This document shows, in pieces, positions 11,678 through 63,800 of a stretch of DNA of 64,000 nt. The stretch is taken from NCBI RefSeq assembly GCF_035084215.1, contig NC_090325.1, forward strand, positions 22,630,001-22,694,000, in the 5' to 3' direction. The notes below the pieces were generated by a model. That model was not told the DNA's origin. It worked only from the letters and a program-made list of their open reading frames with translations, and did not search any database. How positions within the stretch are numbered: position 1 is the stretch's first letter; every line of letters starts with the position of its first letter. Both the position numbers and the translations under genes were made by a program. This stretch comes from Heptranchias perlo. Its lineage: Eukaryota.

Positions 11678-14600
11678 GTAAGTACATTTAGAAATGAAAG
11701 TTCCAGTGTGTGAAAATGTTGAATTCCTGCTGCTATAGCAATACTTTCTGGAGTGATCTTTGAACAAGGGAATGTTGAACTGCCATGCTTAAGACAATTA
11801 TTGTAGAATCGTAGACTGATCCAGCACAGAAGGAGGCCATTCGGCCCATCGTGCCTGTGCCCGGCTCTTTGAAAGAGCTATCCAATTAGTCCCATTTCCC
11901 TGCACTTTTCCCGTAGCGCTGCAAATGTTTCCTGTTCATGTATATAATTCAGTTCACTTTTGAAAGTTAGTATTGAAGGGAGAAGGAAAGACAGAAAGGG
12001 GGCAAAGGAATGTTAAAAATAACTGAATTTTTGAAAAACAAAATTGCATTTTTCCGGCCAGGTGCCCAGCTTCAGCCAACCTTAATCCAGACTCCAAGGG
12101 AAATACTGGCGGCCAAAGGCGAGCAGATCGAACTCACCTGCACTTTGAAAGGTTCCTCGCTCGATCAGGTATTTTGGTACAAACTGGACGAAAACTCCGA
12201 AGCGCATTTTGTGATGTCGGCCACGGTCCTGAATAAACAGGTCAGAGGAGATGGAATAAACGGACGGTTCACTTTGAACAGAGATACCTTTCGGCTATCG
12301 TTCAGTTTAAAGATAGAGGACATGCACCTTTCCGACAATGGGACCTATCACTGCCTAATGATCAGCTCTCAAACCACGCTCTTGGGGGATGGAAGTGTGG
12401 TGACAGTAGGTAAGGAGATCTCGAATGTAGATACATTAAACTGTGACATTACAAAAAAAAACAACGAAACTTTATAAAATAAAAACAGAAAATGCTGGAA
12501 ACACACAGCATCTGTGGAGAGAGAAACAGAATTAACGTTTCAGGTCGATTACCTTTCATCAGAACTTTAAAAAAATAAATGTAGAGGCAGATTCAGATTA
12601 AAGGTATTCAGAAAAGTAAATTTGTCCTGCGGCACTGTTGTGATTTCAGACATTTCTGTATTGCAAACGTTTGCCCTGGCATCCTCAAAATTATGAATTA
12701 TGAATTATTTCTATAGTTATATAACTGTGGGAATTCCACAGTATATTCAGATTATACCGTTTTTTTCCCAAGTGTTTTGTGATCAAGTTTTGAAATGGTT
12801 GTTCTGTGTCAATATTGTTCTACTTACTAGGTATGGGTTCTTAGAGGAGTCTTTATCATCACTTGTCACCGTTCTCCAGTCTAACAAAGTCAGGCTTTGA
12901 ACTGCACTAAGTTATTGATGGCGATAGATATAATGTAAATAATCCTCCATCGTCCCCGCACTGATATTCACGGCTACGAATTGTCCGCTTTTATTTTACA
13001 GAAGATACTTGGTTAAAACACACACTAGAATACAATGCTCAAAAAACCTGTTTATTTCAGTTCTAGAGAAACCGAAAGTGACTTCGCCGCCTCCAACTAC
13101 AAAACGCCGCAAAATCAATCGGCCCAGGATCCCGCTCAAGAAGAAACAGAATAGAAATGGTAAGTCGGATACCAAACTGTGGGCATTGAGCATGTCTGAC
13201 AGATAGTCAGACTGGGACAGTCTCCCCATTAAATATACCTGGCTGACAAATAGGGTTGGCTTTTGGTTATTAAGAGCGAATGCCTGACTTTGAATTGCCC
13301 AATCCTTTACCAACACAACATTGCCAGAGAATTCCTAACATGGCAAGACCACTGTCAGCACAAGTCAGGCACTAGATGTTCATTAAAATGTGTTGCCAGT
13401 TATATAAACCGCCCACACAAGCCAATGAGGTAAAAACGGAAAATGCTGGAAATACTCAGCAAGTCAGGCAGCGTCTGTGGAGAAAGAAACAGAGTTAACG
13501 TTTCAGGTCAATGATCCTTCGTTAGAACTGAGCATTTGCTGGGAGAATTTTATATTTATAACTTTGATTTAGAAGTGAGTGAATCTTGAAGGATTATATA
13601 AATGGGAAAGGTTTTCACTTTAGCTGATCACTGACATGTTCTGAAGCAATTTGTGGGATGGCATGGGAGGGTGCCCTGATATTGAGCTACTTTTATTGGA
13701 AATGGTTTCATAGTATTTCCTGCAGTTCCCGTTCACTCAAAAGATTCGATTATCTGTTCTCCGATTTAGAGCGACAGCAGTAAGAGAAACGTTGGCTCTT
13801 TTTAACAAGCAAATACGCTCGTTTTAAATTACAATGTAAGCATTTTAAACTTGTTACCCCTGAACTTTAATAGTTCAGTGAATGGTCGCGGATTTCCGAG
13901 GAAGGTGATATGTGGTGAATGCGAAAAATTATTTCGTACATCCTTCGATAAGACAATTGGACTGAAGGCTTTTGCTAAATGAATGGGAGAGCTGATGCCT
14001 CGTTCACGCGGAAACCCTCCTGATGTGCATGTCTGCCCTTTAATTTACAGGGCGTTAGAACCAGAGAGTTTCCAGCACGGAAGGAGGCCATTCTGCCCAT
14101 CGTGCCTGTATATAAAACCAATCTCACTGCATAGCCTTATCCCCATAACCTCGTGTCTTCCTTTGCTTTAATGTTTATGGGGTCACCCCCCCTTAAAATG
14201 TGCAATGGACGCTCTTTTAATGGTTACAGTCATGATTGGTCCGCTGCATAATTTTCCTCGTAAGTGTGTCCAATTTTGCACTGAATATCATTCATTTTAA
14301 AATGCATTATTGCCATCATTATAAAATGATTGACTAATCGTTGCATTTAAAAGTTAATTTTAATGGATGCACTGGCGGAATGAACAAGAACAGAAACAAT
14401 GATCCAGTCTGAACTAAAAGCACTCCACGGGTCAGGCAGCATCTGTGGCGAGAGGAGGGTAGGGTTAACGTTTCAGGAGCTCTAACCCTTCGTCAGAACC
14501 CAGTCTGAACCTGTTTCCACTTGGTTGGAATAGAAACGCCACGAATGTGAATCCAAGTCACAATGTTATTAACACGGCAGCTATGGGTTGCGTCTACCCT

Positions 14601-17600
14601 CCATGCTAATTATTAAAATTAGGGACCTACCATTTCTTTAGATTCAAGATTTCCTATGAATTTTAACATGGTTTTATAAAGATCATTTAAAAGTGAATCT
14701 GTTGGTGCAAATAATTAGCAAAAAATCCAGGGGGGAAAGGAGATTTCTTTTACCCATGGAGTTGTTATGATCTGGACTGCATTGGTGGTGGAAGCAGATT
14801 CAGTAATAACTTTGGAAAGGGTATTTGATATATACTTGAAAACGAAAAAAAATCAGGGCTAAGGGAAGTGGGACTAATTGGATAGCTCTTTCAAAGAGCC
14901 GGCACAGACACGATGGGCCGAATGGCCTACGTCTGTGTTGTATGATTCTATGGAGTACCGATCGGACATAAACCGGTTTCCACGGATAATAAATCTCCTC
15001 TTGGATCTTTCAGGGCACAAAACACTGAAGTGTCAGAGCCCACACTAAAACCTCCCTCTCCACGAATATTTCTGGAGCTCAACAAATAACAGGGTTGGTT
15101 TTTTACTGTTATATAAAAAAACACGATTGGTAATTGTTCTATAAATCTACATCCTCACCGGGTCGCTATGGCTGCTGAATGAAAAAAACAGAAATACACA
15201 GCAGATTAGTTAGTATCTGTGAGAAAAAGACAGGTTAATGTTTGGGGTGGAACGCCTTCACCATCCCCATCTGCTGGGTATTTGTAAGATTTCTGCTTTT
15301 ATTTTAGATCTCTATTAACAACTGTTTAAAGAAAAACAGAAATCATTTAACGTAGTTACAGTAAAGCATCTTAGTCCACAGGCTCTCCAAACAGGATCAG
15401 CAACCTTGACTCAATGATAATGCTCTTGCCTTTGAGTCAGAAGGCTGTGGGTTCAAGCCCCATTTCAGAATTTGAGCATATAATCCGGGCTGGTACTTCA
15501 GTGTAGTACTGAGGGAGTGCTGCACTGTTAGAGGTGCTCTCGTTCAGATGAGATATTAAACTGAGGCCCCATCTGCCCTTTCAGGTGGATGTTAAAGATC
15601 CCATGATTAGATGAAGAGCAGGGGATTCCTCTGGTGACCTGGCCAATATTTATCCCTCAACCAACATCTAAAACAGATGGTGTGGTCATTTATGTTCACT
15701 GGTCAATTATGAAGGTTCACTAGATTAATTCCTGGGATGAGAGGGTTGTCTTATGAGGAGAAATTGAGTAGAATGGATCTATACTCTCTGGAATTTAGAA
15801 GAATGAAAGGTGATCTCATTGAAACATATAAGATTCTAAGAGGGCTTGACAGAGTAGAAGTTGAGAGGATGTTTCCCCTGGCTGGAGAGTATAGAACTAG
15901 AGGGCATAGTTTCAGGATAACGGGTTGGATATTTAGGACTGAGATGAGGAGGAATTTCTTCACTCAGACGGTTGTGAATATTTGGAATTCTCTACCCCAG
16001 AGGGCTGTGGACACTCAGTCGTTGAATATATTCAAGACTGAGATCAATAGATTTTTGGACTCTAAGGGAATTGAGGGATCTGGGGATCGGGCAGGAAAGT
16101 GGAGTTGAGGTTGAAGATCAGCCATGATCTTATTGAATGGCGATGCAGGCTGGAGGAGCCGTATGGCCAACTCCTGATCCTATTTCTTATGTTCTTATTT
16201 CATTGTTGTTAGTGGGATCTTTCTATGCACAAATTGACTGTCATGTTTCCTACACTACAATGTAAACTACGCTTCAAAAGTACTTCATTGGCTGTAAAGC
16301 GCTTTGGGATGTCCTGAGGTCGTGAAAGGTGCTATATAAATACAAGTTCATCCTTTTTTTCTTTAACTTGTTTGCTTCTTGTTGCTGTCAATCAACATAT
16401 ATAAAAGCAGGATCTGTCAACAGATTAAGGAGGCAGACATTCTAGAACCAGGAGACGTGGCTTGATCTTACATAGAAAATAGGAGCAGGAGTAGGCCATT
16501 CGGCCCTTCGAGCCTGCACGCCATTCAATATGATCATGACTGATCCTCTATCTCAATGCCATATTCCCGCTCTCTCCCCATACCCCTTGATGCCGTTTGT
16601 GTCTAGAAATCTATCTAGCTCCTTCTTAAATATATTCAGTGACTTGGCCTCCACAGCCTTCTGTGGTAGAGAATTCCACAGGTTCACCACCCTCTGAGTG
16701 AAGAAATTTCTCCTCATCTCAGCCCTAAATGTCCTACCCCATATCCTGAGACTGTGACCCCTCGTTCTGGACCCCCCCCCCCCCCAGACAGGGGAAAGGG
16801 AAGGACTAAGTTTTGATTTGATTAATTGAGTCAGAGGATGGTGCACCGACTGCCCAGATAGGCCACAGAGAAGATAATGTGTGTGTGTTGGGGGATCAAG
16901 GGAGAATTGGATATATATTTGAGGGAGTCGGCCGTTGAGAGGCCTTAGTGTTTGGGAGAGGCCGGAGTCTTTTCCGTACTGTACTTTCCTGTGTTCATAA
17001 AGGTACACATAACACAAATACCCAGCATATTTTTAAATCATGACCTTAAATCTCTTAATATTGATGAAAAAATCTTTAAGAATTTTTAGTTGAAGGGAAT
17101 TCTGTTTTAAAATCATACGGTCCAATAGCGATAGAATTACAGCCATAATTAGGTTTAACAAGCACGCCCCAAAAAAGAACGTGGATGTACAGTTTAACAG
17201 TGTTGGCCGACAGCCGGCTTTATATTTGTATTAAGTAATTGGTTTTAATATCTGAAAGCGGTAGTGTAAAAGATGACTGGTTCATTACATTTGATCACAT
17301 AATGCTGACATGTTATAGAATTCAGAAAGATACAGGTCTGAAAAAAGACCATTTCGATCCATCTGCTCACCCCTGACCATTGGCTGAACATCTCACTGAC
17401 AATCTGTACCCAAAAACTAGGAGTTAGAATGTTCTGTTATCCGAAAGCTATGGGAACGTTTCTGTTTTGAAGAGGATGTATGTTTCGTGTTATTTTGCCC
17501 GGTAACGTGGAAGTCTTGCCCTGTAATGGATGAAACACGTTCATTGCTTTGTGTTGTATTGGATAAGGATTGCTAATGTGCAGATGTGCTGTTCTGCTAG

Positions 17601-18051
17601 GGTATGTCTGCAACTGGACTATCTGGGGATCACTGACCGCCTGCATCCTCCTGTTACTGATCGCCATCGTTTCTGTCGTCATCCTTGATAGGAATAAGAG
17701 TAAGTCCCGATATTAGACTCCGATATTGTATGTTAATATCGGCATTGATATATTTCATTAGTCATCGCAGTATTTATTTGCTCATGAGATCCCTGTTTCT
17801 CTTTCCTGTCTAGAATACCGGAGGCGATGCCCCCACCAGTTTCGGAAAAGGTAAGGAAGATGGATCTTGCACAATTTTAAGTGAGACGTAGGAGGGAGGG
17901 ATAGAGTTTATGATCAAATACGGAATCGACGTCGTATGAATTTAGTCGTATTTGTTAACAGAAGTTTGCGATATACCCTGAGGACGGGTGGGGAGAATCT
18001 CCTCCGCTATTGCCCCTAATTCTCTGAATTCAGTTTTGTCTCAGACGCTAA
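11632..18051 (+). CDS. CD8B: CD8 T-cell coreceptor chain, most likely CD8 beta; spliced CDS join(11632..11677,12062..12409,13061..13159,17601..17699,17814..17850,18045..18051), ~211 aa
   Basis: GT-AG exons join in frame (intron phases 1,1,1,1,2) into leader + IgV + Pro/Thr hinge + TM + short basic tail with RRRCPH. Beta is preferred over alpha from the LIQTP N-terminus, the C-L-M-I...LGDGSVVTV F/G strands and the short tail. The alpha/beta call is an inference. Confidence 0.75.
11805..11975 (-). mobile_element. CR1 3'-end fragment in CD8 intron 1
   Basis: GAAGGAGGCCATTCGGCCCATCGTG...TTTGAAAGAGCTATCCAATTAGTCCC is the reverse complement of the CR1 3' UTR seen at 14.8 and 53.6 kb. Confidence 0.8.
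12062..12409 (+). CDS. CD8B: CD8 exon 2, IgV domain
   Basis: Acceptor tttccggccAG, donor GTAAGG. V-set hallmarks: ELTC, VFWY, GRFT, FSLKI, DNGTYHC, LGDGSVVTV. Confidence 0.92.
12530..12566 (-). ncRNA. minimal hammerhead ribozyme motif (Penelope terminal-repeat remnant 12478-12566), CD8 intron 2
   Basis: Minus strand: agtt CTGATGA a aggt-aatcg-acct GAAACGTT aatt. Confidence 0.65.
13061..13159 (+). CDS. CD8B: CD8 exon 3, hinge/stalk (V)LEKPKVTSPPPTTKRRKINRPRIPLKKKQNRN
   Basis: Acceptor tttatttcAG, donor GTAAGT, 99 nt, phase 1-1, Pro/Thr/Lys-rich. Confidence 0.88.
13493..13529 (-). ncRNA. degenerate minimal hammerhead motif (core mutated to CTAACGA) in Penelope remnant 13432-13530
   Basis: Minus strand: agtt CTAACGA aggatcattgacct GAAACGTT aact. 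Confidence 0.5.
14462..14501 (-). ncRNA. minimal hammerhead ribozyme motif, CD8 intron 3
   Basis: Minus strand: gggtt CTGACGA aggg-ttagagc-tcct GAAACGTT aaccc; stem I differs compensatorily from the agtt/aact copies. Confidence 0.6.
14740..14952 (+). mobile_element. CR1 3'-end fragment
   Basis: GATAGCTCTTTCAAAGAGCCGGC...GGCCGAATGGCC...TATGATTCTATG. Confidence 0.8.
15400..16350 (+). mobile_element. near full-length Deu-domain SINE interrupted by a CR1 3' fragment (~15712-16197)
   Basis: tRNA-like head (GGGTTCAAGCCC B box), Deu core, tail GCTATATAAATACAAG; ORF 15737..16108 is a CR1 RT C-terminus. Confidence 0.85.
16468..16797 (-). mobile_element. CR1 3' fragment
   Basis: C-terminal half of ORF 16553..17017 (RTRGHSL...RRNFFTQRVVNLWNSLP); near-identical to 1060-1370. 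Confidence 0.9.
17601..17699 (+). CDS. CD8B: CD8 exon 4, transmembrane (G)YVCNWTIWGSLTACILLLLIAIVSVVILDRNK
   Basis: Acceptor gttctgctAG, donor GTAAGT, 99 nt, phase 1-1. C-x-x-x-I-W-x-x-L resembles the CD8 TM signature (CDIYIWAPL in human CD8A). Confidence 0.9.
17814..17850 (+). CDS. CD8B: CD8 exon 5, cytoplasmic (K)YRRRCPHQFRK(R) with CxH motif
   Basis: Long polypyrimidine acceptor ctctttcctgtctAG, donor AG|GTAAGG; basic residues followed by CPH. Confidence 0.9.
18045..18051 (+). CDS. CD8B: probable terminal coding exon (R-R-stop), followed by 3' UTR
   Basis: Good acceptor shortly downstream of exon 5 (cagttttgtctcAG), then A CGC TAA. Too short to verify from sequence alone. Confidence 0.5.
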
Positions 18052-18954
18052 ATAGAAGAGAAACTCCGAGACATGGATCACGTTTGCTCATTGCGAACAT
18101 CGATGTATTTTAGAAACAGTGAGAACATCTGACCATCTCCAGCGGTACATTAAATTAATCGGAGTCATCTTTTTGTTTCACGGGCGATCGGCCAAGGTCA
18201 CTCACTCCAGATGTTTAACAATCCATACACAAGGACGGAGAGAAGCTGAGCTCAAGCGCCCAATAGGACAGGATCCACTCAACTACTTTTTAGTATCGAC
18301 AAACAAAATAATACCGGGTCAAACGACACTGTACCCGTGTTAAATTCCTGTCCTCTAGGTCCTTTCATTTTTTTCTTAACTGAACACGGCCCTGTCCTAT
18401 TAGAGACCTTTCGTTTGCTGACTGTTACTAGTTGAATGCCATGACAGTGTCAAATGGTTCAAACAGGTAGTAATGTCCCAGGGATAATGGCCACATGACG
18501 ATTTGAATTGATGCCCCTCACCCCACAAGATATTCTTGTTCAGTCATCACAGACCCGAACAACTCAAACACAATGTAAGAAGCAAACGGATAACTGTGAT
18601 TGACAGCCCATCGTCCTCTCGCTGTCACCTTCCACACAGGAACATAACTCACAAATGGTCATTGATGTACCCACATGGTGCTCTGAGTGCTGGTGCTTGT
18701 GTTAAAACTGCCCATGTCCCCGCAACTTAGCTGTATACAAAGGCTCCAATTACTTCCTGCACTCGCCCCGAATCTCATGATCTCTGGAATACTGACTTGC
18801 AATTGTCCCACTCCATCACTGAGGGTCATTTTCAATGACTTATGGTAAAATAGTGGGAACTAACCTGAGGGTGGGAAAAATCGCTGTTGTTCGCTGTCCA
18901 GAATTAGTGTTGTGCGTTTTGCGTTGCGCGTTGGTTACTAAACTCAAATCGTAT

Positions 18955-23960: not shown

Positions 23961-23964
23961 TACA

Positions 23965-24814
23965 GAGTCGTACAACACCAGGTTGTAGTCCAACAGCTTT
24001 ATTTGAAATCACAAGCTTTCGGAGCTTAGCTCCTTCGTCAGGTGAGTGAAGAAGGGTTTCCATAAAAGCATCGCATATATAGTCAGAGAATAATGTCTGG
24101 TGATTACAGATAATCTTTCCAACTGCCCGTTATCACCCCTCGGCAGAGAGATAATTACAGCAATCAAAGGAGTGGATGGTGTTCAGACAGGTTTAGTCTG
24201 GGACACATTACATTCAAGAATACTGAATACACAAGGGGTCAGATAACAAAGACAGAGAGAGAGAGAGAGAGGCACCCGAAAGGCAGAGAGAGAGAGAGAA
24301 TGACCCGTTGTATTAAAAACAGATAACTTTTTTTCGCTGGTGGGGTTACATGTAGCGTGACATGAACCCAAGATCCCGGTTGAGGCCGCCCTCATGGGTG
24401 CGGAACTTGGCTATCAATTTCTGCTCGACGATTTTGCATTGTCGTGTGTCTTGAAGGCCGCCTTGGAGAACGCTTACCCGAAGATCAGAGGCTGAATGTC
24501 CTTGACTGCTGAAGTGTTCCCCGACTGGGAGGGAACCCTTCTGTCTGGCGATTGTTGTGCGGTGTCCGTTCATCCGTTGTCGCAGTGTCTGCATGGTCTC
24601 GCCAATGTACCATGCTCCGGGGCATCCTTTCCTGCAACGTATGAGGTAGACAATGTTGGCCGAGTCACAGGAGTATGAGCCATGTACTTGGTGGGTGATG
24701 TCCTCTCGTGTGATGGTGGTATCTGTGTCGATCTCAAGTCACCGATCTTCGGGTAAGCGTTCTCCAAGGCAGCCTTCGAGACACACGACAACGCAAAATC
24801 GTCGAGCAGAAATT
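23965..24814 (-). mobile_element. Penelope-like retroelement 3' part: GIY-YIG endonuclease C-terminus, 3' UTR and hammerhead-bearing terminal repeat
   Basis: ORF 24346..24594: TLRQRMNGHR...PVGEHFS...GHS..DL...EQKLIAKFRT...GLN, typical of Penelope GIY-YIG. Confidence 0.88.
24009..24045 (-). ncRNA. minimal hammerhead ribozyme motif at the Penelope 3' end
   Basis: Minus strand: tcac CTGACGA a ggagc-taa-gctcc GAAAGCTT gtga. Confidence 0.75.
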
Positions 24815-27462: not shown

Positions 27463-27464
27463 GT

Positions 27465-29417: not shown

Positions 29418-32400
29418 CAGGCTCCCCTCTTCCCCTCTGCTTCTGCTCCCCCTTCCCCACTGCTTTTGCTTCCCCCCTGTTTCTCCCCTTTCCCCTGCTC
29501 CCCCTCTCCCCTTTCCCCTGCTTCCCACATCTCTCCTTCCCCCATGCTCCCCTCCCCCCTGTTCCCCCTCTTCTCCTCTAGCCCTGCTCCCCTCCCCCCT
29601 GCTCCCCCTCTTCTCCCCTTCCCCCTGCTCCCCCTTCACCCCTTTCCCCTGCTCCCCCTTCACCCCTTTCCCCTGCTCCCCACATCTCCCCTTCCCCCAT
29701 GCTCCCCTTCTCCCATTCCCCCTGCTCCCTCTCTTCTCCTCTCCCCCCTGCTCCCCCTCTTCTCCCCTCCCTCTGCTCCTCCTCTTCTCCCCTGCCCCCT
29801 CATCTCCCCTTCCCCCCTGCTCCCCCTCTTCTCCCTTCCCCCTCTTCTCCCCTTCCCCCCTGCTCCCCCTCTTCTCCCCTTCCCCCTGCTCCCCTTCTCC
29901 CCTTTCCCCTGCTCCCCACATCTCCCCTTCCCCCATTCTCCCCTTCTCCCATTCCCCCTGCTCCCTCTATTCTCCGCTTCCCCTGCTCCCCCTCTTCTCT
30001 CCTTCCCCCCTCTTCTCCCCTTCCCCCTCTTCTCCCCTTCGCCCTGCTCCCCCTCTTCTCCCCTTTCCCCCTGCTCCCCCTCTTCTCCCCTTCCCTCCTG
30101 CTCCCCCTCTTCTCCCCTCCCTCTGCTCCTCCTCTTCTCCCCTGCCCCCTCTTCTCCCCTTCCCCCCTGCTCCCCCTCTTCTCCCCTTCCCCCCGCTCCC
30201 CCTCTTCTCCCCTCCCCCTCTTCTCCCCTCCCCCCTGCTCCCCCTTCTAACCCCTCCCCCCTGCTCCCCTTTCTCCCCTCCCCCCTGCTCTCCTTTCCCT
30301 CCCCTCCCCCCTGCTCCCCTGCTCCCCTCCCCCTGCTCCCCTTCTCCCCTCCCCCTGCTCCCCTTCTCCCCTCCCCCTGCTCCCCTTCTCTCCCCTCCCA
30401 CCTGCTCCCCCTTCTCCCCTCCCCCCTGCTCCCCTTCTCTCCCCTCCCCCTGCTCCCCTTCTCCCCTCCCCTGCTCCCCATTCTCACCTCCCCCCTGCTC
30501 CCCCTTTTCCCCTGCTCCCCCTCTCCCCTTTCCCCTGCTTCCCACATCTCTCCTTCCCCCATGCTCCCCTCCCCCCTGCTCCCCCTCTTCTCCTCTAGCC
30601 CTGCTCCCCTCCCCCCTGCTCCCCCTCTTCTCCCCTTCCCCCTGCTCCCCCTTCACCCCTTTCCCCTGCTCCCCCTTCACCCCTTTCCCCTGCTCCCCTC
30701 ATCTCCCCTTCCCCCATGCTCCCCTTCTCCCCTTCCCCCATGCTCCCCTTCTCCCCTTCCCCCTACTCCCCCTCTTCTCCTCTCCCCCTGCTCCCCCTCT
30801 TCTCCCCTCCCTCTGCTCCTCCTCTTCTCCCCTGCCCCCTCTTATCCCCTTCCCCCTTTTCTCCCCTTCCCCCTTCTCCCCTTCTCCCCTTTCCCCTGCT
30901 CCCCACATCTCCCCTTCCCCCATGCTCCCCTTCTCCCATTCCCCCTGCTCCCTCTATTCTCTGCTCCCCCTGCTCCCCCTCTTCTCTCCTTCCCCCCTCT
31001 TCTCCCCTTCCCCCTCTTCTCCCCTTCCCCCTGCTCCCCCTCTTCTCCCCTTCCCCCCTGCTCCCCCTCTTCTCCCCTTCCCCCTGCTCCCCCTCTTCTC
31101 CCCTGCCCCCTCTTCTCCCCTTCCCCCCTGCTCCCCCTTCTAACCCCTCCCCCCTGCTCCCCTTTCTCCCCTCCCCCCTGCTCCCCTTTCTCTCCCCTCC
31201 CCCCTGCTCCCCTTTCTCTCCCCTCCCCCTGCTCCCCTTTCTCTCCCCTCCCCCTGCTCCCCTTCTCCCCTCCCCCTGCTCCCCTTCTCTCCCCTTCTCT
31301 CCCCTCCCACCTGCTCCCCCTTCTCCCCTCCCCCCTGCTCCCCTTCTCTCCCCTCCCCCTGCTCCCCTTCTCCTCTCCCCTCCCCCTGCTCCCCTTCTCC
31401 TCTCCCCTCCCCCCTGCTCCGCCTTCTGCTCTCCCCTGCTCCCCATTCTCACCTCCCCCCTGCTCCCCCTTCTCCCCTCCCCCCTGCTCCCCCTCTTCTC
31501 CCCTCCCCCCCGCTCCCCTTCTCCCCTCCCCCCTGCTCCCCCTCTTCTCCCCACCCCCCCCGCTCCCCCTCTTCTCCCCACCCCCTGCTCCCACTCTTCT
31601 CCCCACCCCCTGCTCCCCCTCTTCTCCCCTTCCCACCTGCTCCCCCTCTTCTCCCCTTCCCACCTGCTCCCCCTCTTCTCCCCTCCCCCTGCTCCCCCTC
31701 ATCTCCCCTTCCCCCCCTGCTCCCCCTCTTCTCCCCTCCCCCCGCTCCCCTTCTCCCCTCCCCCTGCTCCCCCTCATCTCCCCTTCCCTCCGCTCCCCCT
31801 CTTCTCCCCTTCCCCCCTGCTCCCCCTTCTCCCCTCCCCCTGCTCCCCTTCTCCCCTCCCCCCTGCTCCCCTTCTCCCCTCCCCCTGCTCCCCTTCTCCC
31901 CTCCCCCTGCTCCCCTCTTCTCCCGTTCCCCCCTGCTCCCCCTCTTCTCCCCACCCCCTGCTCCCCCTCTTCTCCCCTCCCCCCGCTCCCCCTCTTCTCC
32001 CCACCCCCTGCTCCCCCTCTTCTCCCCTTCCCACCTGCTCCCCCTCTTCTCCCCTTCCCACCTGCTCCCCCTCTTCTCCCCTTCCCACCTGCTCCCCCTC
32101 TTCTCCCCTCCCCCAGCTCCCTCTCTTCTCCCCTCCCCCTGCTCCCCCTCATCTCCCCTTCCCTCCGCTCCCCCTCTTCTCCCCTTCCCCCCTGCTCCCC
32201 CTTCTCCCCTCCCCCTGCTCCCCCTTCTCCCCTCCCCCTGCTCCCCTTCTCCCCTCCCCCCTGCTCCCCTTCTCCCCTCCCCCCTGCTCCCCTCTTCTCC
32301 CCTTCCCCCCTGCTCCCCCTCTTCTCCCCTTCCCCCCTGCTCCCCCTCCCCCCTGCTCCCCCTCTTCTCCCCTTCCCCCCTGCTCCCCCTTTCCTCCTTC

Positions 32401-32490
32401 CTCCCCGTTTCCACTCTTCCCCCCCCCCCCACTTCTCCTGTTCCCCTCCTCCCCCGCTACTCCTCCGGACTCTGCTGTCCTCCCCCCTTA
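29418..32490. repeat. 3.1-kb polypyrimidine/polypurine satellite built from CCCCTGCTCCCC and CTCTTCTCCCC units
   Basis: Plus strand is almost entirely C/T; explains the Pro-rich and Gly/Glu/Arg-rich ORFs. Confidence 0.97.
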
Positions 32491-33344
32491 TTTGCAAAGG
32501 CTGCATTTTTGGTGCTCGGCCTCCGGTCCGCGCTTTTAGTGAACGGCAGCGAGGGCAGTTGGTGACCTACAAAGCCCATTCACAGCCCAACACACCCCGG
32601 GCCCGAGTTCACATGCACGTCATCGATAGCGGAAGCAGTTAGTCCCTGGCACTAGTCACAGCGTATTCTCTTCAGGACCATAAACAACAGCTAATCAGAC
32701 TAGTAACCAAGATACTAGCTTGACATTTGTATGACCTTAGTCCCAAGCTTGTGGATGATGTAGGACAAGTGTTAGCTCACAAATTGCCTGGGATATTCCA
32801 GGCTTCCTGGACTGGCCAGATTTTCTTACCATTCCAGCTCATACACTATGATGTTGAAAAATGCCCTAACATTACAGTAATAAACCCACTCACTGCTAAA
32901 ATTAAACACTTCATAAAATTAAATATTTCTTCAAAACTTTACTTATAGAATTGTAGAAGAAGGCCATTCAGAGGCCACATCTACTTTGCCCCATCTTTTC
33001 ATTATCTGACCTAGATTCTCTTTTCTTTCACTATTTTAACTAGTTACATTGTTCATTATTTTTGTCTTTCTTAAAAAAAAAATCACCTCATTTCTCTACA
33101 ATTTTTAAACTTTTAAATGCTGAATTAACCTGTTTTCCAGTGTGTTCGATTAACTCCACCCCCATTTCTGAGTATGGGATCCACCTCGTTGTATCTCGAT
33201 TAAAAAAACAGCTCCCAAGTAAGAATTTAAAATTGCATAAATAAAAAGAAAACAATGGCAAATATTGGACATCTGAAACAAAAATAGAAAATGTTGGAAA
33301 TATGCAGCAGGTCAGTCAGCTGCTGATGGGAGAAAGGGCAGAAA

Positions 33345-42142: not shown

Positions 42143-43219
42143 TTGGCAACAACAGCTCTGAATCAGATCTCAGACCTGTCCGATGTCACAGCCTCCATTA
42201 CAATCAATGCAGTAATCGACAAACGTGTGTCACGTTAAAATAAAAAGGGAAAACTGCAAACGCTGGAAATATGAAATAAAAACAGAAAATGCTGGAAATG
42301 CACAGCAGGTCCGTCGGCATCCGTAAAGAGAAAAGGCTGGCTATGATTTCACAGATGTGTGCCCTTCGATCAGACCTGAATAATGCACACTTGCACACTG
42401 TTTTGGGGGTGGGTCTTAAGTATTTAGTTCCCTCCAAATAGCTTTCATGCAGATGAGGAAATAATGATGTTTTAAAATTACGTTACTGTATTTTTTGCTG
42501 TAATTCTGTTTTTCGTGTTGTTATTGTTAGGTATGGTTCACTACTCTATATTTTTGTTCAAATTTATTCCAGGTAATTAACACATCAAATGCATCACAGG
42601 ACGAATATGCGGCAGAAGGACTGGAATGTTATCTCAAACTTTTTTGTGCTTTTCGAAAGTTGCAGTCAAAACTTTATATCATTGAACTGGGCCTTGTCTA
42701 CTTTTCACCCTGTTTTATCATCGCAAATCTCTTTCTTTAGTTTTTGGAAATTGGGATGAAACTTGCACCTCATTGTACTTAGAGTGCACACGTCTTTGAG
42801 CCATTACTAGCAGATTTATCGCTGTTTAAGGCTTTAACCTTTGGAAATACTCTTCGAGCAAATGCTACAATGATGGATGTAAAACATTGTCTCCTTGTAA
42901 TATAGCCCTTGTGTTTACTATCTAGTAAATTGATGTAGCTTATCCTATATTTTGCTATTTGTATCATACATCGAGTGTAAAATGTATATGGTGACTTTGA
43001 GGCTGTGAAAGCAGTAATTCTCCAAATTCTGCGTGTTTTAAATAATGATAATTAAAAAGAAAAAAACGATTTCCTGTGTGTTATTAAAAATGAATTGATT
43101 TCCAGTTAGGTGTCTGGTTGAAAAACTGACGTCTGAGGATTGCAGGGTAAAGTATTTACCTCGTTGTTACTTTGAGTAATTGCAAGGTTGTACAGAACCT
43201 TACTGCATACATCGCGTAC

Positions 43220-44860
43220 AATCTAACACTACAAAGTTACTGGGGTAGAAATTGGATTAAGTCCATTTTCGGGGGCAGAATGGGCGCCACGCTCGAAGCG
43301 CACGTCCAATCACGTGGACGCAACTTAGGCCCCCAAATTAGTTCCCCTGATTAATTAAAATAAAATAGGCACTGCACTGTTCATTGGCAGCTCACTTAAT
43401 GTGGGCATCAATATCGGTGTTGCTGACGCCATTTAAAGGCATCCTGCAACTCTAAAAGGGGAGGTGCAGTTTGGCTGCAGGCAACCAGAACTGAAGATTG
43501 GCAGACACAGTAGAAACTGCAAGGGCTCCCTGTTTTTCTGAGGTATTGGTGGAGGAGGTTGGCAGGAGGAGAGACATCTATCCACCAGGCGGCAGGAAGA
43601 TATCAAGGCCAGTTGCCTGGCATGAGTGGGCAGAGGTGGCAGAGCGGGTCAGTGCCAGAAGCATCACCGCCAGGACATGACTGCAATGCAGGGATAAGTT
43701 CAGTGACCTCACAAGAATAGCTAAGGTAAGCCTCCTGACACATATCTCTCATTACTTTATGATTAGCCTTGCACTACCTGTTGCCCCAGCATTCACCATC
43801 CATCCCTCCCTCGATTCCCCTCCAATCACTGCAGCACACTTCACTCCACCTCCTTCTGCTCCTAATGTCACACTCAGCACCTGCTACTTTTCTTCACCAT
43901 TACTTCCTTCACCTTCTCACACCTCTGCCATCTTTCACACACCAGCGACTCTATTCTACCCTGACATGCATGTCCTCAAAACACTCTCTCTTTCTTGCAG
44001 GGTAAAGCTCGCACACAATAACTGGGAGCAGGCAGCCACAGGAAGAAGGGACACACTTCATCCATGTGCTGTCCCCACTCGAAGAGCAGGTTATGGACAT
44101 CGTGGGCAGGGGACGTGTCAGGACCGTGGCATCTGGTGAGGCTGAAGGATAAGTCTGGCAGGGTTTTAAATCATCTTCCCCTCCTTCGCTTCTCACTTAA
44201 ATCTCACCCCTACATGTGATGCATGACAGGTTGCAGCTGCTTTCAGAAGCCACTCATCTGTCTCTGCATACCCATGTCACTAACTGCTAACTCATCGCCC
44301 ATCCTTACATTTCATGTCTAGAAGCTCAACACAGCCCTGAGAAAGCATCAGAAGAAGAAGAGGGCAGCAATACTCAAACGTACACTTGCAGACACCAGCT
44401 CAGAGAATGGAACTGCACATTATTCAGAAGGTAGACTAGAGGGGTCTACATGTGGAGATCCATACAGCACGAGTGCCCAGGAGCAAGGGCAGGGGGATAG
44501 GATTGCCCAGAAAGCAGCTCGGCGGAGGGAGATCTTTCATCCTAGCCCTGCTGCACAGAGTACAGATGCAGACACTGAGGACCCACCAAAACAGCCACAA
44601 ATTTCTCCCAAAAACACCCTAGAAGTTTAAAACGATTAACCAGCGACTTACCTTGATGGAAGTGAGGATCCCTTTAAATACCGCTTGTCGACTGTTCCCG
44701 CCATGGTTTGCTGGGTGGGTTAAGGAAGTGACTTTTCAGGCACGCATGGACACCAATTTCACAAAAGTGTCCTGATTCAGGCGCAGGACCCTTACTAGCT
44801 TATTTAAATGAAGCCTGTGTTTGTTTGAGGCAGCCGCCAGGGATGCCTATATGGTGTCAT
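43220..44860 (+). mobile_element. decayed PIF/Harbinger-type DNA transposon carrying a spliced Myb/SANT-like gene remnant
   Basis: 43498-43725 reads RAPCFSEVLVEEVGRRRDI...WAEVAERVSARSITART*LQCRDKFSDL, then donor GTAAGC; next exon at ~44001 reads KLAHNNWEQAATG. No transposase recognised. Confidence 0.7.
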
Positions 44861-44861
44861 G

Positions 44862-44990
44862 ATGTGGAGATGCCGGTGATGGACTGGGGTTGACAATTGT
44901 AAACAATTTTACAACACCAAGTTATAGTCCAGCAATTTTATTTTAAATTCACAAGCTTTCGGAGATTTCCTCCTTCCTCAGGCAAATGTT
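44862..44990 (-). mobile_element. Penelope terminal-repeat fragment
   Basis: ATGTGGAGATGCCGGTGATGGACTGGGG...ACAACACCAAGTTATAGTCC, related to 23970-24045, 59315-59405 and 63659-63800. Confidence 0.75.
44947..44987 (-). ncRNA. minimal hammerhead ribozyme motif
   Basis: Minus strand: atttgc CTGAGGA a ggagg-aaa-tctcc GAAAGCTT gtgaat. Confidence 0.7.
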
Positions 44991-45519
44991 TCAAGAGCTC
45001 CTTGAAGCCTACGCATTTATACATATAGAACAATACATGGTGTTTACAGACTGCCCCTGCAACTGCCCGTTGCCAAGGCAATCACCGTGTTCAGACAGAG
45101 AGGTGTCACCTGCAGAACCCCCGAATACACATTCAACAAATATGGTGTCAGGCACCGTTCCAGAGCGGAACATCACGCTGCAAAATTCGACTTCGTGGCA
45201 TCTGTTTTGGACCTGGAAAACGTGCGAAACGCATTCCAATTTCTACATCATTATGTAGAAAGTTTTCTAAACTGCGAGTGAGATAAATGCCCAGAGATTC
45301 CACTCTTTCATAGGGCAGAATTTGGATGTTGTGCCGGCCGTGTGATTGGAAATTGGGGTGGAACCTCTCTCCACCAGGTTTCCATCCCGTGATCACTGGC
45401 ACCACAAATTATAATGGGAGGGGGAGCTTCTTCCCCGCCCCCACCCCCCCCCATTCCAAAGTCAGTCTCTGGGAAGGGGCAGAGGCAGGATGTGGGATCC
45501 CAGGCTGCCCCAGATATAC

Positions 45520-49689: not shown

Positions 49690-50112
49690 ACTGACACCCA
49701 ACCTCAGTACAAGAAGGTATCAATATTACAAAGCAATTCCAAACTGTATAATTTACAATTATAGCTTAAACCAATTGATCATAGAATTCTTAGCAAATGG
49801 GTAACAAAATAAACTCAATGTTTTTAAGGGTTTGTGAGATAGGAACATAGGAACATTTAGCCTATTCCTATAATTTTTATAACTTCCATTCAGTACGCAA
49901 GCATGACCCTGACCTTCTGGTCACTTGCCATTTTAATTCCCCGTCCCACTCCCACTCTGACCTCGGCCTCCTACACTGCTCCAATGAAGCTCAATAGAAG
50001 CTCGAGAAACAGCACCTCGTCTTTCAATTAGGCACTTTACAACCTTCCGGACTCAACATTGAGTTCAGCAACTTCAGATCATAACCACTGCTCCCATTTT
50101 TTCGGACAGCAG

Positions 50113-50960
50113 ATAGGAACATAGGAACAGGAGTAGGCCATTCAGCCCTTCGTGCCTGCTCCGCCATTTGATAAGATCATGGCTGATCTGTGATCTAACT
50201 CCATATACCTGCCTTTGGCCCATATCCCTTAATACCTTTGGTTGCCAAAAAGCTATCTATCTCACATTTAAATTTAGCAATTGAGCTAGTATCAATTGCC
50301 GTTTGCAGAAGAGAGTTCCAAACTTCTACCACCCTTTGTGTGTAGAAAAGTTTTCTAATCTCACTCCTGAAAGGTCTGGCTCTAATTTTTAGACTGTGCC
50401 CCCTACTCCTAAAATCCCCAACCAGCGGAAATAGTTTCTCTCTATCCACCCTATCTGTTCCCCTTAATATCTTATAAACTTCGATCAGATCACCCCTTAA
50501 CCTTCGAAACTCTAGAGAACACAACCCCAATTTGTGTAATCTCTCCTTGTAACTTAACCCTTGAAGTCCGGGTATCATTCTAGTAAACCTACACTGCACT
50601 CCCTCCAAGGCCAATATGTCCTTCCGAAGGTGCGGTGCCCAGAACTGCTCACAGTACTCCAGGTGCGGTCTAACCTGGGCTTTGTATAGCTGCAGCATAA
50701 CTTCTGCCCCCTTGTACTCTGGTCCTCTAGATATAAAGGCCAGCATTCCATTTGCCTTCTTGATTATTTTCTGCACCTGTTCATGACACTTCAGTGATCT
50801 ATGTACCTGAACCCCTAGGTCCCTTTGGACATCCGCTGTTTTTAACTTTTTACCATTTAGAAAGTACCCTGTTCTATCCTTTTTTGATCCAAAGTGGATG
50901 ACCTCACATTTGTCTGCATTGAATTCCATTTGCCACAGTTTTGCCCATTCACCTAATCTA
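50113..50960 (-). mobile_element. young CR1 3' fragment
   Basis: Uninterrupted ORF 50195..50929 (244 aa, RT C-terminus). Confidence 0.93.
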
Positions 50961-51004
50961 TCTAATCTAATCTATCTATCTATCTAATCTATCTATCTAA
51001 TCTA
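50954..51004. repeat. (TCTA/CTAAT)n microsatellite at the CR1 5' junction
   Basis: Directly visible. Confidence 0.85.
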
Positions 51005-51255
51005 TGCTGGTAATGGTTCTGCTGTTGCCATTTAGAGCTCCTCTGGACCCATCTTTTGTTTCTTTACTTGTTTCATTACCACCCTCCTTGCCTTGCACCA
51101 TCATCCCTTTTGTCATTTAATCACTCCTACCCTCCACTCTATCACAGACCCTCTTCCCTTTTGTCCTCTCCTCCACTCTCCTTCCTCCCCCTCCCCCTCC
51201 CTCCTTTCCCTGGCTCTGTACTTGCTTAAAAACTGTTAAATCTTTAATTTCTTCC

Positions 51256-51292
51256 AGTTCTGATGAAAGGTCTTTGACCTGAAACGTTAACT
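51256..51292 (+). ncRNA. minimal hammerhead ribozyme motif at the Penelope 3' end
   Basis: agtt CTGATGA a aggtc-ttt-gacct GAAACGTT aact. Confidence 0.75.
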
Positions 51293-51919
51293 CTGTTTCT
51301 TTCTCCACAGATGCTGCCTGACTTGCTGAGTATTTCCAGCATTTTCTGTTTTAAACTTATAATTTTTATCTTGTGATGTTTTGTACTGATGTTGCCCAGT
51401 CCCAAAGGACCACAGAAGCTAACCACCTACACCTCGGATCAACTGACAGTCAATTACTGCTCACAGACTGCAATCAATACCTTTTATATGTTGAGAATTG
51501 GTACTTACATCTTGTGGCTAATGGCAGTAATGTATTCACCAAATGCATTGTGTTAATTGGGGTGATAATTATTGAATTGTTGAAACATGATAAATATGTC
51601 GGTTGTTTCTTCTGCACAAAGTAGCAGGTGGCACAGAACCAGTTCCCTACTGCAAGCTGCAGAACACACCTGGCGCCTTGTATGTGACTGTGGGATTTAA
51701 TGTGGTGAACACTATGTAGAGCACAGTGTGGAAGATTGCATTCACTGATTAGAGTTGCATGTTCTTAGAAATTCAGTCTTGCAATGATATACATTAAAGT
51801 TTATCCAATTGCAATCATTCATCTTTTAGCTGAAAAATGGTTAACTAAAATAAACTGCAAAATTTTTAAGACATACATTAGCACAAAAATGTAAAGCTTA
51901 GTTATTTTGTCTTTTCTCA

Positions 51920-53205: not shown

Positions 53206-53469
53206 CTTGATTCTCCCCTGTACTCTATGTTTTTCGAGCCCTGCTGAAATGCTGCCCTATCTTTCATTCTTGAGTTCTGATGGGGGGACTACACTCTCAA
53301 ACCTTAACCTGACTTTTCCCTTTACAGATGCTGACTCACCTATTGTATTTCCAACATTTTCTGCATTTATTTCAAACTTCAAGTATTTTTATTTATACAT
53401 CTATTGTGGCTTGTTCAATCAAGCAGAGTAACTCACAAGATATCATCTCTAAAAAAAAACATTTCCAAG

Positions 53470-57250: not shown

Positions 57251-59314
57251 CTGGAAAGGGGACATTTTCCATTTTCGGCCACCAATGTTGCATTAGGCAC
57301 TCCTAGGTCAGGTACAGCAGGGTCAGATGCAAAGTAAAGCTCCTTCTACTCTGGGCTCAAACCTAACACTCCCCACAAGAGCACCACCCGCAGCACCAAA
57401 GTAACATTTTCATTTTCCATTTTCTTAGACCACTCCTTATAGTTTGGCTGACTAACGTTGTCGAGTTAGTGCCTCCATGTCCCACGTGTGCACTGTGTTC
57501 CGCATTTGCCTATTAACAACCAGGAAGCAATTATTCAAGCGGATTTAAATAGGGCCCTTGCAGCCAGCAAACAGAAGACTTTCATTACATTATTCTGGGC
57601 TGGATTCAAACCCACATACTTCCCAAATATATAGTCACTACCACTTAACTGTGCTGTGTGATTTCCTTTATTTCCACAATTTACAAATAATAAGTAATAA
57701 CTGTAAGAAAGTTTACATTTTAGGACAAGGTTATAGTCAGGGTTAGTCAAATGTTATAGTAGTTGGACGGGAAAGTAGGGTTAAGGTCGCAATCAGATCA
57801 GTCATGATCTTATCAAATGGCAGAGCAGGCTCGAGGGGCCGAATGGCCTACTCCTGCTTTTAATTCGTATGTTCGTATGTAGGACAAATATGCTGCAACA
57901 TAAGGAAAATAATGTGCAAAAAAAATCTTACGAATGCTTCTTTGTGATTTCCACATTTTAACAGACTTGACCAGGTTACAAAGATTACATAAATACAGAC
58001 GTCTGACAAATACAGTTTTTACTGTTGTCATAATCTACACGGTTCTATAGCAGGAACATTGTAACAAAAGTCTTCCCTCTAATGTTTTAACACTAACCCC
58101 CCTTGCACTCATGTATGTGATGAATGTGATTAGTTATTGTACTCGTGAAATACACATGATCCAAGGGTGTCATGAAATATACATGATCCAGCAAACACCA
58201 ACAATATCTTGGGACAGGTTTAGTGCTGTACAGGTACTTGAAGATGTAATAGATAACAGTTTGTTACTTTTTGAAACTAACGGTAAAATATGTTGTGTCC
58301 AGGCCATAAAATGGTCATCAGTATGCAACAGTTCCTTCGGTTCAATTGTAACGCGTCACTGTTGACGGAAGTAACCTCTTCAGAAATGTTGGGTGGAATT
58401 CTCATGAAAAGTATAACTTTTCTGAGTGACAATCCCTTAAGCCGTTGAGAATTATAGCCTGTAACATACTTTTTTTCGCGAGGAAGAGGCATTTTCTCGT
58501 GTAATACCCATCCCTTCGCCTAACATTGGGATTTGCGGAACTGGGAGGCAACATTCGGCTCAAATCAATCGTTTGATCAATTTTAACAGTCGATCGCTTG
58601 TTCTTTGAGTAGCAGAACCCATTGTAGCACCAATTAAATATTTTACCACGTGAGTGAAGAAGCATAAAATTACAAATATCCCTGGTACAAGCGCCTTAAA
58701 TAAACATCGATTTCACAAGTAGGGTTCCATTGCAGACACTCTGATGGGCGATTAAAGGTAAGAATTATTTGTGTTACAGTTGTGCTGCCCCATTGTAATT
58801 GTTTTTTTACACTTGATATATGAGCAGAAACCTTCAAATCGAATTCATGGTTAATGCATTGTCAATTTGCCAATCGGGGCTACTAGGAATCTGAAAAAGA
58901 AGCATTTGTTTACAGGCTACCAATTACCGTATGCTGACATTATTCTGCCTGGATCAGCGTCCAAATTCTGCTTCAAAAGGAAACGGTTACAATTCGTAGA
59001 GGAAATTAAGCACAGAGATGGATTCGTGAGCTCGCTCGCTCTTCTCTGGTTCATACAGCCACGGCTACACTCAGCCTAGGAGATAAATACAACGAGCTTA
59101 CTTCCGCTGTAAAGACATTTACCAGCAAGCTATACGAATAACTATCAAATGTCCGAATGGTACAGATATTATCCTGGAAACTGGAAGGTATCGAGCGCTC
59201 CTAGTTACTTTGGTGACTGTCAGGTAACCTGCTAGCAGCATTATTAGAATCACATTTATTGTGGTCCGTTTTTGCCTCGAACTCACGAAGAAGATCCATG
59301 CGACTATAATCTTA

Positions 59315-59405
59315 ATGTGGAGATGCCGGTGATGGACTGGGGTTGACAATTGTAAACAATTTTACAACACCAAGTTATAACTTGGTGTTGTAAAATTGTT
59401 TACAA
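59315..59405. repeat. Penelope terminal-repeat remnant forming a perfect ~56-bp palindrome
   Basis: TTGTAAACAATTTTACAACACCAAGTTA|TAACTTGGTGTTGTAAAATTGTTTACAA. Confidence 0.85.
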
Positions 59406-61159: not shown

Positions 61160-61322
61160 AGTATCATAGGATCGTAGAAAGGTTACAGCACGGAAAGAGG
61201 CTATTCAGCCCATCGAGTCCGCGCTGGCTCTAAGCAAGTTCAATCCAGCTTGTCCCACTACCCCGCCTTATCCCCGTAGCCCTGCAATTTTTTTCCTTTC
61301 AAGTACTTATCCAGTTCCCTTT
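61160..61322 (-). mobile_element. CR1 3' end
   Basis: Reverse complement of the CR1 3' UTR. Confidence 0.75.
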
Positions 61323-61479
61323 TGCTGTTGGTTTCTACTAACCCTGATGAAGGAGCCGCTGCCCAAGGAGATGCTGGGACTTGACGAGCAGCTGCCAATC
61401 TAGTGAAAAGCTTCTGTCAACAATTAGCCTCTAGTTCAACAACTACACAATTCCATTTTGCTTCTCACCTACAGAGATA

Positions 61480-62750: not shown

Positions 62751-63658
62751 TGAAGTAAGGGGCAGTGGGTAGTTACAGCAAGAAATGGATCAGGCTGAAT
62801 GTTGGGAGAGGGTGGGGCTAGAGGAGGCAGGGGACCATATAACCAGTGTAAAATGTGCCCAGGAAGGTTCCTTGAACCCTGGAAACTGGGCTATACACAT
62901 TTGGAAGCTTTAGCCTTTAATTCTATTTCACAGTTAGATGTGAAGCCTTTATACACACTATGGACAATTGTTACGGTCAAATGTGATGCTTGAATACCCT
63001 ATTAAAGAAAAGCATAATTTCTCCCTGTAATGGATTTTACATACATGTAGAAATCCCCATCTTTTCACAGTATTGTGAAATACTGTGGTTTGAATGGTCT
63101 CAGATTGATGGTGTGCCGCGAGTTCTCATTTTGTTTGGTGCTGGGTTAGTTGTTAAATCAGCAGTCTGTTCTTAAGGAACGACTATTAAAAATACCAAAT
63201 CTTACTATTTAATCAAAAAATTGTAATCCCGTCCATAATGAATGTTGCTACAATTATCTGCCCGTGCGATTAGTTCCTTCCTTCTTGTGATTAATTTCAG
63301 TGCATGGAAATTACAAGGAAATTCTCACTTGAGATAATAACCAAATGCTAAAACAGCCACATACTGTACACGTGCGAATTTGTATATTTAGTGCGCTGAA
63401 ATTAATGCAAAAAATCTGATATCACCCAAACGAACATTAAATGGGGTATTATTCAAACAATACCCCATTCAAATAATACAATTCAAGTAATACCCCATTT
63501 GATGTCCCTTTAAGTGATACACGGCTCAGAGGTCCATACTCAATACAAGTCTGGTTTTCAGAAGTAGTGTCTGCTCCAAATCAGCTGTGCACACGAATCT
63601 TACTGTGTCTGTGAATAAGGTGAGTTTAGTTTTTGCACACAAAGGTTTATTAAAAATA

Positions 63659-63800
63659 AATGTAAGGAATCTTACAACACCAGGTTATAGTCCAACAGTT
63701 TATTTGAAATTCACCTGACGAAGGAGGAAGCCTCCGAAAGCTTGTGATTTTCAAATAAAACTGTTGGACTATAACCTGGTGTTGTAAGATTCCTTACATT
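63659..63800. mobile_element. hairpin element: ~51-bp inverted Penelope terminal repeats enclosing a hammerhead motif
   Basis: Arms 63659-63709 and ~63749-63800 are reverse complements with one indel. Confidence 0.85.
63711..63747 (+). ncRNA. minimal hammerhead ribozyme motif
   Basis: tcac CTGACGA a ggagg-aag-cctcc GAAAGCTT gtga. Confidence 0.75.

What the first reader, a model, noticed from the sequence alone, without database searches (positions are those of the whole stretch)
12530..63747. Two families of minimal hammerhead ribozymes with compensatory covariation, tied to Penelope elements
Seen: seven motifs of the form stemI-CUGANGA-(A)-stemII-GAAA-NN-UU-stemI'. Family A ends GAAACGTT (12530, 13493, 14462, 51256); family B ends GAAAGCTT (24009, 44947, 63711). 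Helix III is reduced to a loopless palindrome that differs between families but stays palindromic (AACGTT vs AAGCTT). Stem I covaries (agtt/aact, gggtt/aaccc, tcac/gtga), as does stem II (ggagc/gctcc, ggagg/cctcc, ggagg/tctcc, aggtc/gacct). One copy of each family lies 3' of a GIY-YIG coding remnant. Known: Penelope-like elements carry minimal type-I hammerheads thought to cleave as dimers through the helix III palindrome. Inference: these are shark versions, most with an extra A after the CUGANGA box, with predicted GUU/CUU cleavage triplets, at roughly one per 9 kb here.
Basis: partly seen in the sequence, partly recalled or inferred. Interest (0 to 1): 0.75.

Follow-up and report, generated by a model that had tools for sequence, protein, structure and literature searches.

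The report
Shark Penelope retroelement hammerhead stubs
These are real hammerhead-ribozyme motifs of an already described minimal kind, left in scattered and likely inert stubs of two Penelope-type jumping genes in a likely shark genome, and the short stubs begin at the motif's first letters rather than at its predicted cut site, so they were likely copied from uncut RNA that starts there.

Summary
The motifs are real. Six of seven fit a strict minimal-hammerhead descriptor (0 hits in 300 simulated windows); the seventh (13497) has a core mutation and a broken stem II. Stems covary, and variation among relatives' copies avoids the catalytic core. Both families trace to Penelope-like elements with a Zn-linker GIY-YIG endonuclease; the best protein hits are sharks.

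The loopless palindrome, the extra nucleotide and the dimer model are published (PMC4209133), so this is a new member of a known kind. The scan has noted it many times, also in this genome.

The ribozyme therefore likely sits at the RNA's 5' end, and the stubs are likely run-off copies of uncut RNA. One 143-nt hairpin insertion turns exactly at the predicted cut. Cleavage is untested, and no genome was held for a genome-wide count.

The parts
12534..12562 (-). Family A hammerhead core, intact; stub of about 12480-12566 in intron 2 of an Ig-V gene, antisense to it; imperfect A/T-rich duplication flanks it
13497..13525 (-). Family A copy with G5 to A and a stem II mismatch, likely dead; similarity to the 51260 copy starts one base before stem I; intron 3, antisense
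14415..14499 (-). 85-nt family A subfamily stub (core 14496-14467) between 11-bp target-site duplications at 14404-14414 and 14500-14510; starts 3-5 nt before C3
24013..24041 (-). Family B hammerhead core, intact; stem I 24045-24042 with 24012-24009; predicted cut 24013/24012
24075..24081 (-). TATA-like box 40 nt upstream of C3, with an initiator-like TCACT at 24049-24045
   Evidence: promoter function inferred
24346..24738 (-). GIY-YIG endonuclease end of the family B ORF (130 aa, open), about 305 nt upstream of the ribozyme
   Evidence: PF01541, E 2.5e-4, just below Pfam's cut-off; 93% to an RT-bearing shark protein
24744..24814 (+). Inverted 71-nt piece of the same endonuclease region at the truncated 5' end
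44860..45101 (-). 242-nt family B subfamily stub (core 44981-44953, TATA box at 45021-45015, full tail) between 7-bp duplications
49884..50084 (+). C-terminal third of the family A endonuclease, one in-frame stop
   Evidence: 56% to a ray protein bearing the GIY-YIG and Zn-linker motifs
50113..50971 (-). LINE remnant inserted between the family A coding end and its ribozyme (approximate ends)
51226..51232 (+). TATA-like TTAAAAA, 30 nt upstream of the first base of stem I
   Evidence: promoter function inferred
51256..51352 (+). Family A hammerhead (stem I 51256-59 with 51289-92, core 51260-51288, predicted cut 51288/51289) and tail
59313..59404 (.). Tail-only head-to-head hairpin of family B, no ribozyme, between 10-bp duplications
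63660..63802 (+). 143-nt head-to-head insertion: inverted tail arm (63660-63714) that stops at the first base after the predicted cut, then core 63715-63743 and tail; 12-bp duplications at 63648-63659 and 63803-63814

Best explanation
The seven motifs are minimal type-I hammerhead sequences in 5'-truncated stubs of two Penelope-like retrotransposon families, likely lying at the very start of the element's RNA, and most short stubs were likely copied from uncut RNA. Shown: the motif, its stems, the linkage to endonuclease remnants, target-site duplications, TATA-like boxes, and copy starts at stem I. Inferred: the element's promoter starts transcription within a few bases of stem I. The element's protein nicks A/T-rich DNA and begins reverse transcription inside the RNA at the tail, 55-90 nt past the core, as shown for the Anolis element. 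It then runs to the capped 5' end, leaving an 85-110-nt ribozyme-plus-tail stub; two such copies from opposite strands give head-to-head hairpins. In the parent element the ribozyme would be a weak cutter needing a partner copy (pairing through AACGUU or AAGCUU) or the element's protein, and a cut would remove a leader of about 33-40 nt. The genomic stubs are likely inert and decaying.
For: Descriptor: 6 hits against 0 in 300 simulated windows. On the seven copies 62 of 63 cells pair and 7 of 9 pairs change on both sides; slid controls pair 14-49%. In a relative's contigs only 2 of 29 family B motif positions vary at 10% or more, N7 and loop II (P 0.015). Only 1 of 12 variable family A positions lies in the 13-base core (P 0.001). 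Metagenome locus L011 carries a related endonuclease (61% to P0001), the same motif with compensated stems and a similar tail. TATA-like box at -40, -40 and -39 from C3 in 24041, 44981 and L011, and TTAAAAA at -34 in 51260. Three of three short family A copies start at the equivalent of 51255-51260. In four runs of one sample, listed 5' loose ends with unlike flanks pile at 51256-51260, depth steps up 3.6- to 5.3-fold there, and none is listed at the cut, 51289. Internal priming, dispensable cleavage and protein assistance: PMC11167929.
Against: No RNA end was mapped: all runs were contigs, RNA only by guess, from one sample of a relative, and 451 loose ends were not shown. The depth step could partly reflect divergence of this copy upstream of stem I. 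Depth keeps rising towards the tail, so many copies start further down. Family B showed no comparable pile among its listed loose ends, and the 44953 copy starts 121 nt upstream of C3, beyond the TATA box. Drosophila Penelope has a TATA-less internal promoter (PMC2377424). The covariation rests on about four lineages and the shuffle control ignores kinship; pairs changed on both sides were matched by 49 of 500 shuffles. No cap-derived extra G is evident in two of the three short A copies. Rfam gave no hammerhead match.
Confidence: 0.7

Rival explanations
1. Same identity, but the ribozymes cut efficiently in vivo as dimers, freeing unit-length RNA that is circularised or copied directly, so cut RNA is the main template.
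For: Core and palindrome are kept across families. The model is proposed in PMC4209133. The inverted arm at 63660-63714 stops exactly at the first base after the predicted cut.
Against: No listed 5' loose end or inverted joint at 51289. None of the three short family A copies starts at the cut. Cleavage mutants insert normally in vitro and no RNA-seq ends were seen at the Anolis cut site (PMC11167929).
Confidence: 0.15
2. Copies start at stem I because the new cDNA folds back on the stem I complement and stops or self-primes there, not because the RNA starts there.
For: The 63.7-kb hairpin turns on the 4-nt stem I complementarity. Three of 5 opposite-strand joints in family A contigs have one end at 51256-51261. 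Self-priming was proposed for PLE palindromes (PMC3846280).
Against: A 4-bp stem is weak; family A stem I has a predicted pairing probability of 0.2 or less, yet shows the clearer pile. It does not explain the TATA box at a fixed distance in three family B-type elements. The 59.3-kb hairpin turns elsewhere, without a ribozyme.
Confidence: 0.1
3. The pile at 51256-51258 comes from splicing of host exons onto the pyrimidine-rich CAG at 51255-51257 in RNA-derived contigs.
For: The sequence before the core looks like a splice acceptor. In Drosophila Penelope an intron ends at helix I (PMC4209133). The runs may be RNA.
Against: Genomic copies in the window, one with an exact 11-bp duplication, start at the same place with unrelated flanks.
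Confidence: 0.03
4. The motifs are chance matches, or host-adopted ribozymes that regulate the Ig-V gene.
For: No Rfam match. Three copies lie in one gene.
Against: 0 of 300 simulated windows. All three intronic copies are antisense to the gene, one has a mutated core, and CpG-type decay hits the family A palindrome in 6-19% of contig depth.
Confidence: 0.02

Closest known systems
Minimal hammerheads (min-HHR) of metazoan PLE pseudo-LTRs (Cervera and De la Pena 2014, PMC4209133; parts 1-2 of 4 read, 2 supplementary files searched, file 1 not searchable)
   Same: Type I, no helix III beyond a palindromic 15.2-16.2, extra nucleotide after A9, 4-5-bp helix I, several covarying families per genome, mostly solo copies from truncated elements, found in fish Neptune/Poseidon/Xena elements.
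   Different: No shark is named in the parts read or the two files searched. Family A closes stem II with A-U or G-U rather than the usual G-C. Placement directly after a TATA-like box is not stated there.
PAc element of Anolis carolinensis (Frangieh et al. 2024, PMC11167929; parts 1-2 of 4 read)
   Same: Ribozyme in the pLTR just upstream of a tail; A/T-rich targets; internal priming explains ribozyme-plus-tail stubs.
   Different: PAc is Poseidon-clade and its ORF starts in stem II; the families here have relatives with the Neptune/Nematis Zn-linker, and their start codons were not located.
EN+ PLE insertion architecture (PMC3846280 and PMC8557442; passages only)
   Same: 5' truncation, inverted copy at the 5' end, 30-40-bp tail, 8-10-bp duplications (7-12 bp here), a TATA box about 20 bp before a TCACT initiator in a rotifer pLTR.
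   Different: Those passages do not place the initiator relative to the ribozyme or tie the inversion point to the cut site.
Non-LTR retrozymes (bioRxiv 10.64898/2026.07.22.740005; part 1 of 5 and two passages read, supplements closed)
   Same: Type I hammerheads derived from PLE pLTRs; reported in one chondrichthyan genome.
   Different: Retrozymes are tandem arrays; these copies are dispersed single stubs.

Membership tests
Minimal type-I hammerhead of metazoan PLEs | Core CUGANGA, GAAA and UH cleavage site | tested here: met
   6 of 7 copies intact; 13497 has G5 to A
Minimal type-I hammerhead of metazoan PLEs | Helices I and II kept by compensatory change | tested here: met
   62 of 63 cells paired, 7 of 9 pairs changed on both sides; few independent lineages
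Minimal type-I hammerhead of metazoan PLEs | Helix III reduced to a loopless palindrome | tested here: met
   7 of 7: CG in family A, GC in family B
Minimal type-I hammerhead of metazoan PLEs | [quoted passage not shown] | tested here: met
   5 of the 6 strict hits pair best with it; 14467 pairs better without it; 13497 aligns with it
Minimal type-I hammerhead of metazoan PLEs | Purine-pyrimidine 10.1-11.1 closing pair (general consensus, recalled; usually G-C) | tested here: met
   G-C in 3 of 3 family B; A-U in 2 and G-U in 2 of family A, so the usual G-C is absent there
Minimal type-I hammerhead of metazoan PLEs | Location in the pLTR, 3' of a GIY-YIG endonuclease | tested here: met
   24041 and 51260 copies; also L011
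Minimal type-I hammerhead of metazoan PLEs | Site-specific self-cleavage, as dimer or with protein help | not testable with these tools
   Only contigs were available; no molecule ends
EN+ PLE, Neptune/Nematis type | RT fused to C-terminal GIY-YIG with CCHH | tested here: met
   Family B: 93% to P0001, which has RVT_1. Family A: only by a 56% match to P0049, which has the EN but no RT hit
EN+ PLE, Neptune/Nematis type | Cx2-5CxxC linker before the endonuclease | tested here: met
   Present in relatives P0001 and P0049; truncated away in the window itself
EN+ PLE, Neptune/Nematis type | Placement by RT phylogeny | not tested
   No PLE RT in the window; no reference set fetched
EN+ PLE, Neptune/Nematis type | Tail, inverted 5' copy and target-site duplication | tested here: met
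   Inversions in 3 of 4 family B insertions; exact 7-12-bp duplications at 4 of 6 insertions searched
Non-LTR retrozyme | Tandem array with a hammerhead in each unit | tested here: not met
   No ribozyme lies within a tandem array

The most novel reading that the evidence does not exclude
The ribozyme is the first thing transcribed and has a job in insertion. A cDNA that runs off cut RNA and one that runs off uncut RNA end in complementary stem I bases, so they anneal almost without trimming and close a two-ended insertion such as 63660-63802. The same cut would strip the capped leader and retire the RNA from translation.
Probability: 0.1. Interest if true: 0.65.

Novelty: new member of a known kind. 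Interest (0 to 1): 0.25.

Why it matters
As a motif it adds a shark example to a class described in 2014. What remains open in print is what PLE hammerheads do (PMC8557442, PMC11167929). If the ribozyme sits at the transcript's first bases, a cut would act on the capped leader rather than free a unit from a long precursor, and the many duplication-bounded stubs would record RNA starts and cuts in DNA. That is testable, but this window gives only a few cases and the scan holds better-sampled versions of the same idea.

Tried and rejected
No genome is held, so no genome-wide count or covariation test. Rfam gave 5 matches, all miRNA models below their gathering scores on hairpins, none a hammerhead. 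Two pattern scans of viral contigs found 0. The run search listed no RNA holder on record; runs X5 and X7 laid nothing; neither bears on expression. The metagenome scan gave 17 loci; only L011 is a clear relative of family B. I kept 5 of 17 for alignment A1 (L006, L008, L011, L012, L013), chosen by eye for a stem I next to the core, and dropped a near-duplicate (L009), six loci of another family and five likely chance hits. The search pattern fixed part of each stem, so leans towards the structure and one search is the fairer count. Lunse et al. on dimer cleavage is not held; I saw it only through review passages (PMC6765202). My first guess that family A is Poseidon-type was dropped: its relative has the Zn-linker. 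A second acceptor-like stretch with branch-point-like letters right after the family A cut (CAG before ATG at about 51310) gained no support: no loose end is listed there. Thermodynamic dimer folds did not give the helix III form and say nothing on activity. Searches for a printed shark case: 'Penelope + shark + hammerhead ribozyme' gave 1 paper, where 'shark' refers to the name; a search on start site and TATA gave 2 listed papers, not read for this point beyond passages of one. Closed or unsearched supplements could name sharks.
Full report
Observation. All seven motifs are present. A descriptor demanding the core, a palindromic dinucleotide, stem II of 4 or more pairs and stem I of 3 or more finds 6 of them, and none in 300 simulated windows of matched local composition. 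The seventh, at 13497, has G5 changed to A and a mismatch in stem II. On the seven copies 62 of 63 cells pair and 7 of 9 pairs change on both sides, while slid structures pair 14-49%. These copies stand for only about four lineages, and the count of two-sided pairs alone was reached by 49 of 500 shuffles. One quoted case is weaker than it looks: two G of the 14467 stem lie in the target-site duplication. Rfam has no matching family.

Independent check from relatives. Contigs of a related organism (coded A, one sample, RNA only by guess) were laid on one copy of each family. For family B, 2195 and 2557 contigs laid from two runs and none from two runs of organism B. Of 29 motif positions only N7 and one loop II base vary at 10% or more (P 0.015). 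For family A, 12 of 29 positions vary at 5% or more, only one of them (A6 to G, 3-15% of depth, 3-11 contigs) in the 13-base core (P 0.001). Partner positions 51271 and 51277 both vary in the compensating direction, though phase is not shown. The CG palindrome shows C to T and G to A in 6-19%, as expected for decay after insertion.

What carries them. The 24041 copy lies about 305 nt after an open GIY-YIG end that is 93% identical to an RT-bearing Heptranchias perlo protein; the named best hits are sharks. The 51260 copy lies 3' of the last 66 codons of a second endonuclease, with a LINE piece between; its one hit is a ray protein with GIY-YIG and Zn-linker motifs. Relatives of both have the Cx2-5CxxC linker that marks Neptune and Nematis elements (PMC8557442 passages); no RT tree was made. 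L011, from a metagenome, has a related endonuclease, the same motif with compensated stems and a similar tail. Three of four family B insertions have an inverted part, and 4 of 6 insertions searched have exact duplications of 7-12 bp at their ends, the known PLE signature.

Where copies begin. The three short family A copies begin at the equivalent of 51255-51260, that is at stem I; for 14467 an 11-bp duplication fixes this. In the relative's contigs, listed 5' loose ends with unlike flanks fall at 51256-51260 in all four runs (37 contigs in X1), and depth steps up 3.6- to 5.3-fold there. None is listed at the cut, though 451 ends were not shown. The listed ends at 51302 continue in family-like letters and look like alignment breaks. 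A TATA-like box lies 40, 40 and 39 nt before C3 in two family B subfamilies and L011, and TTAAAAA lies 30 nt before 51256. I looked for these boxes after reading earlier scan notes. Family B showed no such pile, and the 44953 copy starts beyond its TATA box.

Mechanism. In the Anolis element, reverse transcription starts inside the RNA at the tail, targets are A/T-rich, both strands are cut and extended, ribozyme mutants still insert, and cutting needs the protein (PMC11167929). Applied here by inference: transcription starts within a few bases of stem I, copying begins at the tail and runs off the uncut 5' end, and a stub of ribozyme plus tail results. Two copies from opposite strands give hairpins such as 59313-59404 and 63660-63802. 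In the parent element the ribozyme is likely weak and partner- or protein-dependent; family A monomers are predicted to prefer folds that hide the core, whereas family B monomers form stems I and II. A cut would remove a 33-40-nt leader. The stubs are likely inert: the three in the Ig-V gene are antisense to it.

The boldest reading. At 63660-63802 the inverted arm stops at the first base after the predicted cut and the forward arm starts at stem I. A cDNA from cut RNA and one from uncut RNA would end in complementary bases and could join there. Fold-back on stem I, or trimming to a 4-nt match, gives the same sequence. The five family A inverted joints do not end at the cut, one family B joint lies within 2 nt of it, and unchecked earlier notes on this genome report little preference for the cut. 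I give it 10%.

Comparison and verdict. The palindromic helix III, extra nucleotide, family structure and dimer model are in PMC4209133, which also reports low activity. I found no printed shark case in two searches, but a 2026 preprint covers one chondrichthyan and some supplements were unseen. The scan lists 1401 findings with these words in at least 38 genomes and 241 notes in this genome. New member of a known kind; interest 0.25.

Noticed in passing
window 11632-17851 (+): Five-exon Ig V-set membrane gene (leader, V, hinge, TM, tail ending RRRCPHQFRKR) matching a Chiloscyllium protein at 72% in the V domain; it looks CD8-like by my recall, no call names it. Three family A stubs lie antisense in introns 2 and 3.
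   Followed up: partly
window 59313-59404: Tail-only hairpin insertion with a perfect 56-nt palindrome and a 10-bp duplication; 65 nt are identical to the tail of the 44953 copy.
   Followed up: yes
window 51263 (contigs of organism A): A6 to G variant of the catalytic core in a few high-depth contigs (3-15% of depth): possibly a subfamily with an altered core.
   Followed up: no
window 53275-53304 (+), about 42350-42383 (-), 33280-33336 (-): Older family A relics: two with a decayed core, one tail only; none scores with the covariance model.
   Followed up: partly
window 63416-63524 and 63290-63406: Two further imperfect hairpins just upstream of the 63.7-kb insertion, unrelated to the ribozyme tail.
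   Followed up: no
window 29480-32460: 3-kb C/T-rich degenerate tandem array (periods 8 and 25-26) with extreme strand skew.
   Followed up: no
L001, L003-L005, L007, L016: Another minimal-hammerhead family in metagenome contigs, with a few unpaired bases between stem I and the core; two loci have an inverted partner copy nearby.
   Followed up: no
P0009, P0017, P0019, P0023, P0033, P0047, P0049: Several annotated shark and ray protein isoforms contain pieces of these PLE endonucleases, probably annotation read-through or exonisation.
   Followed up: no
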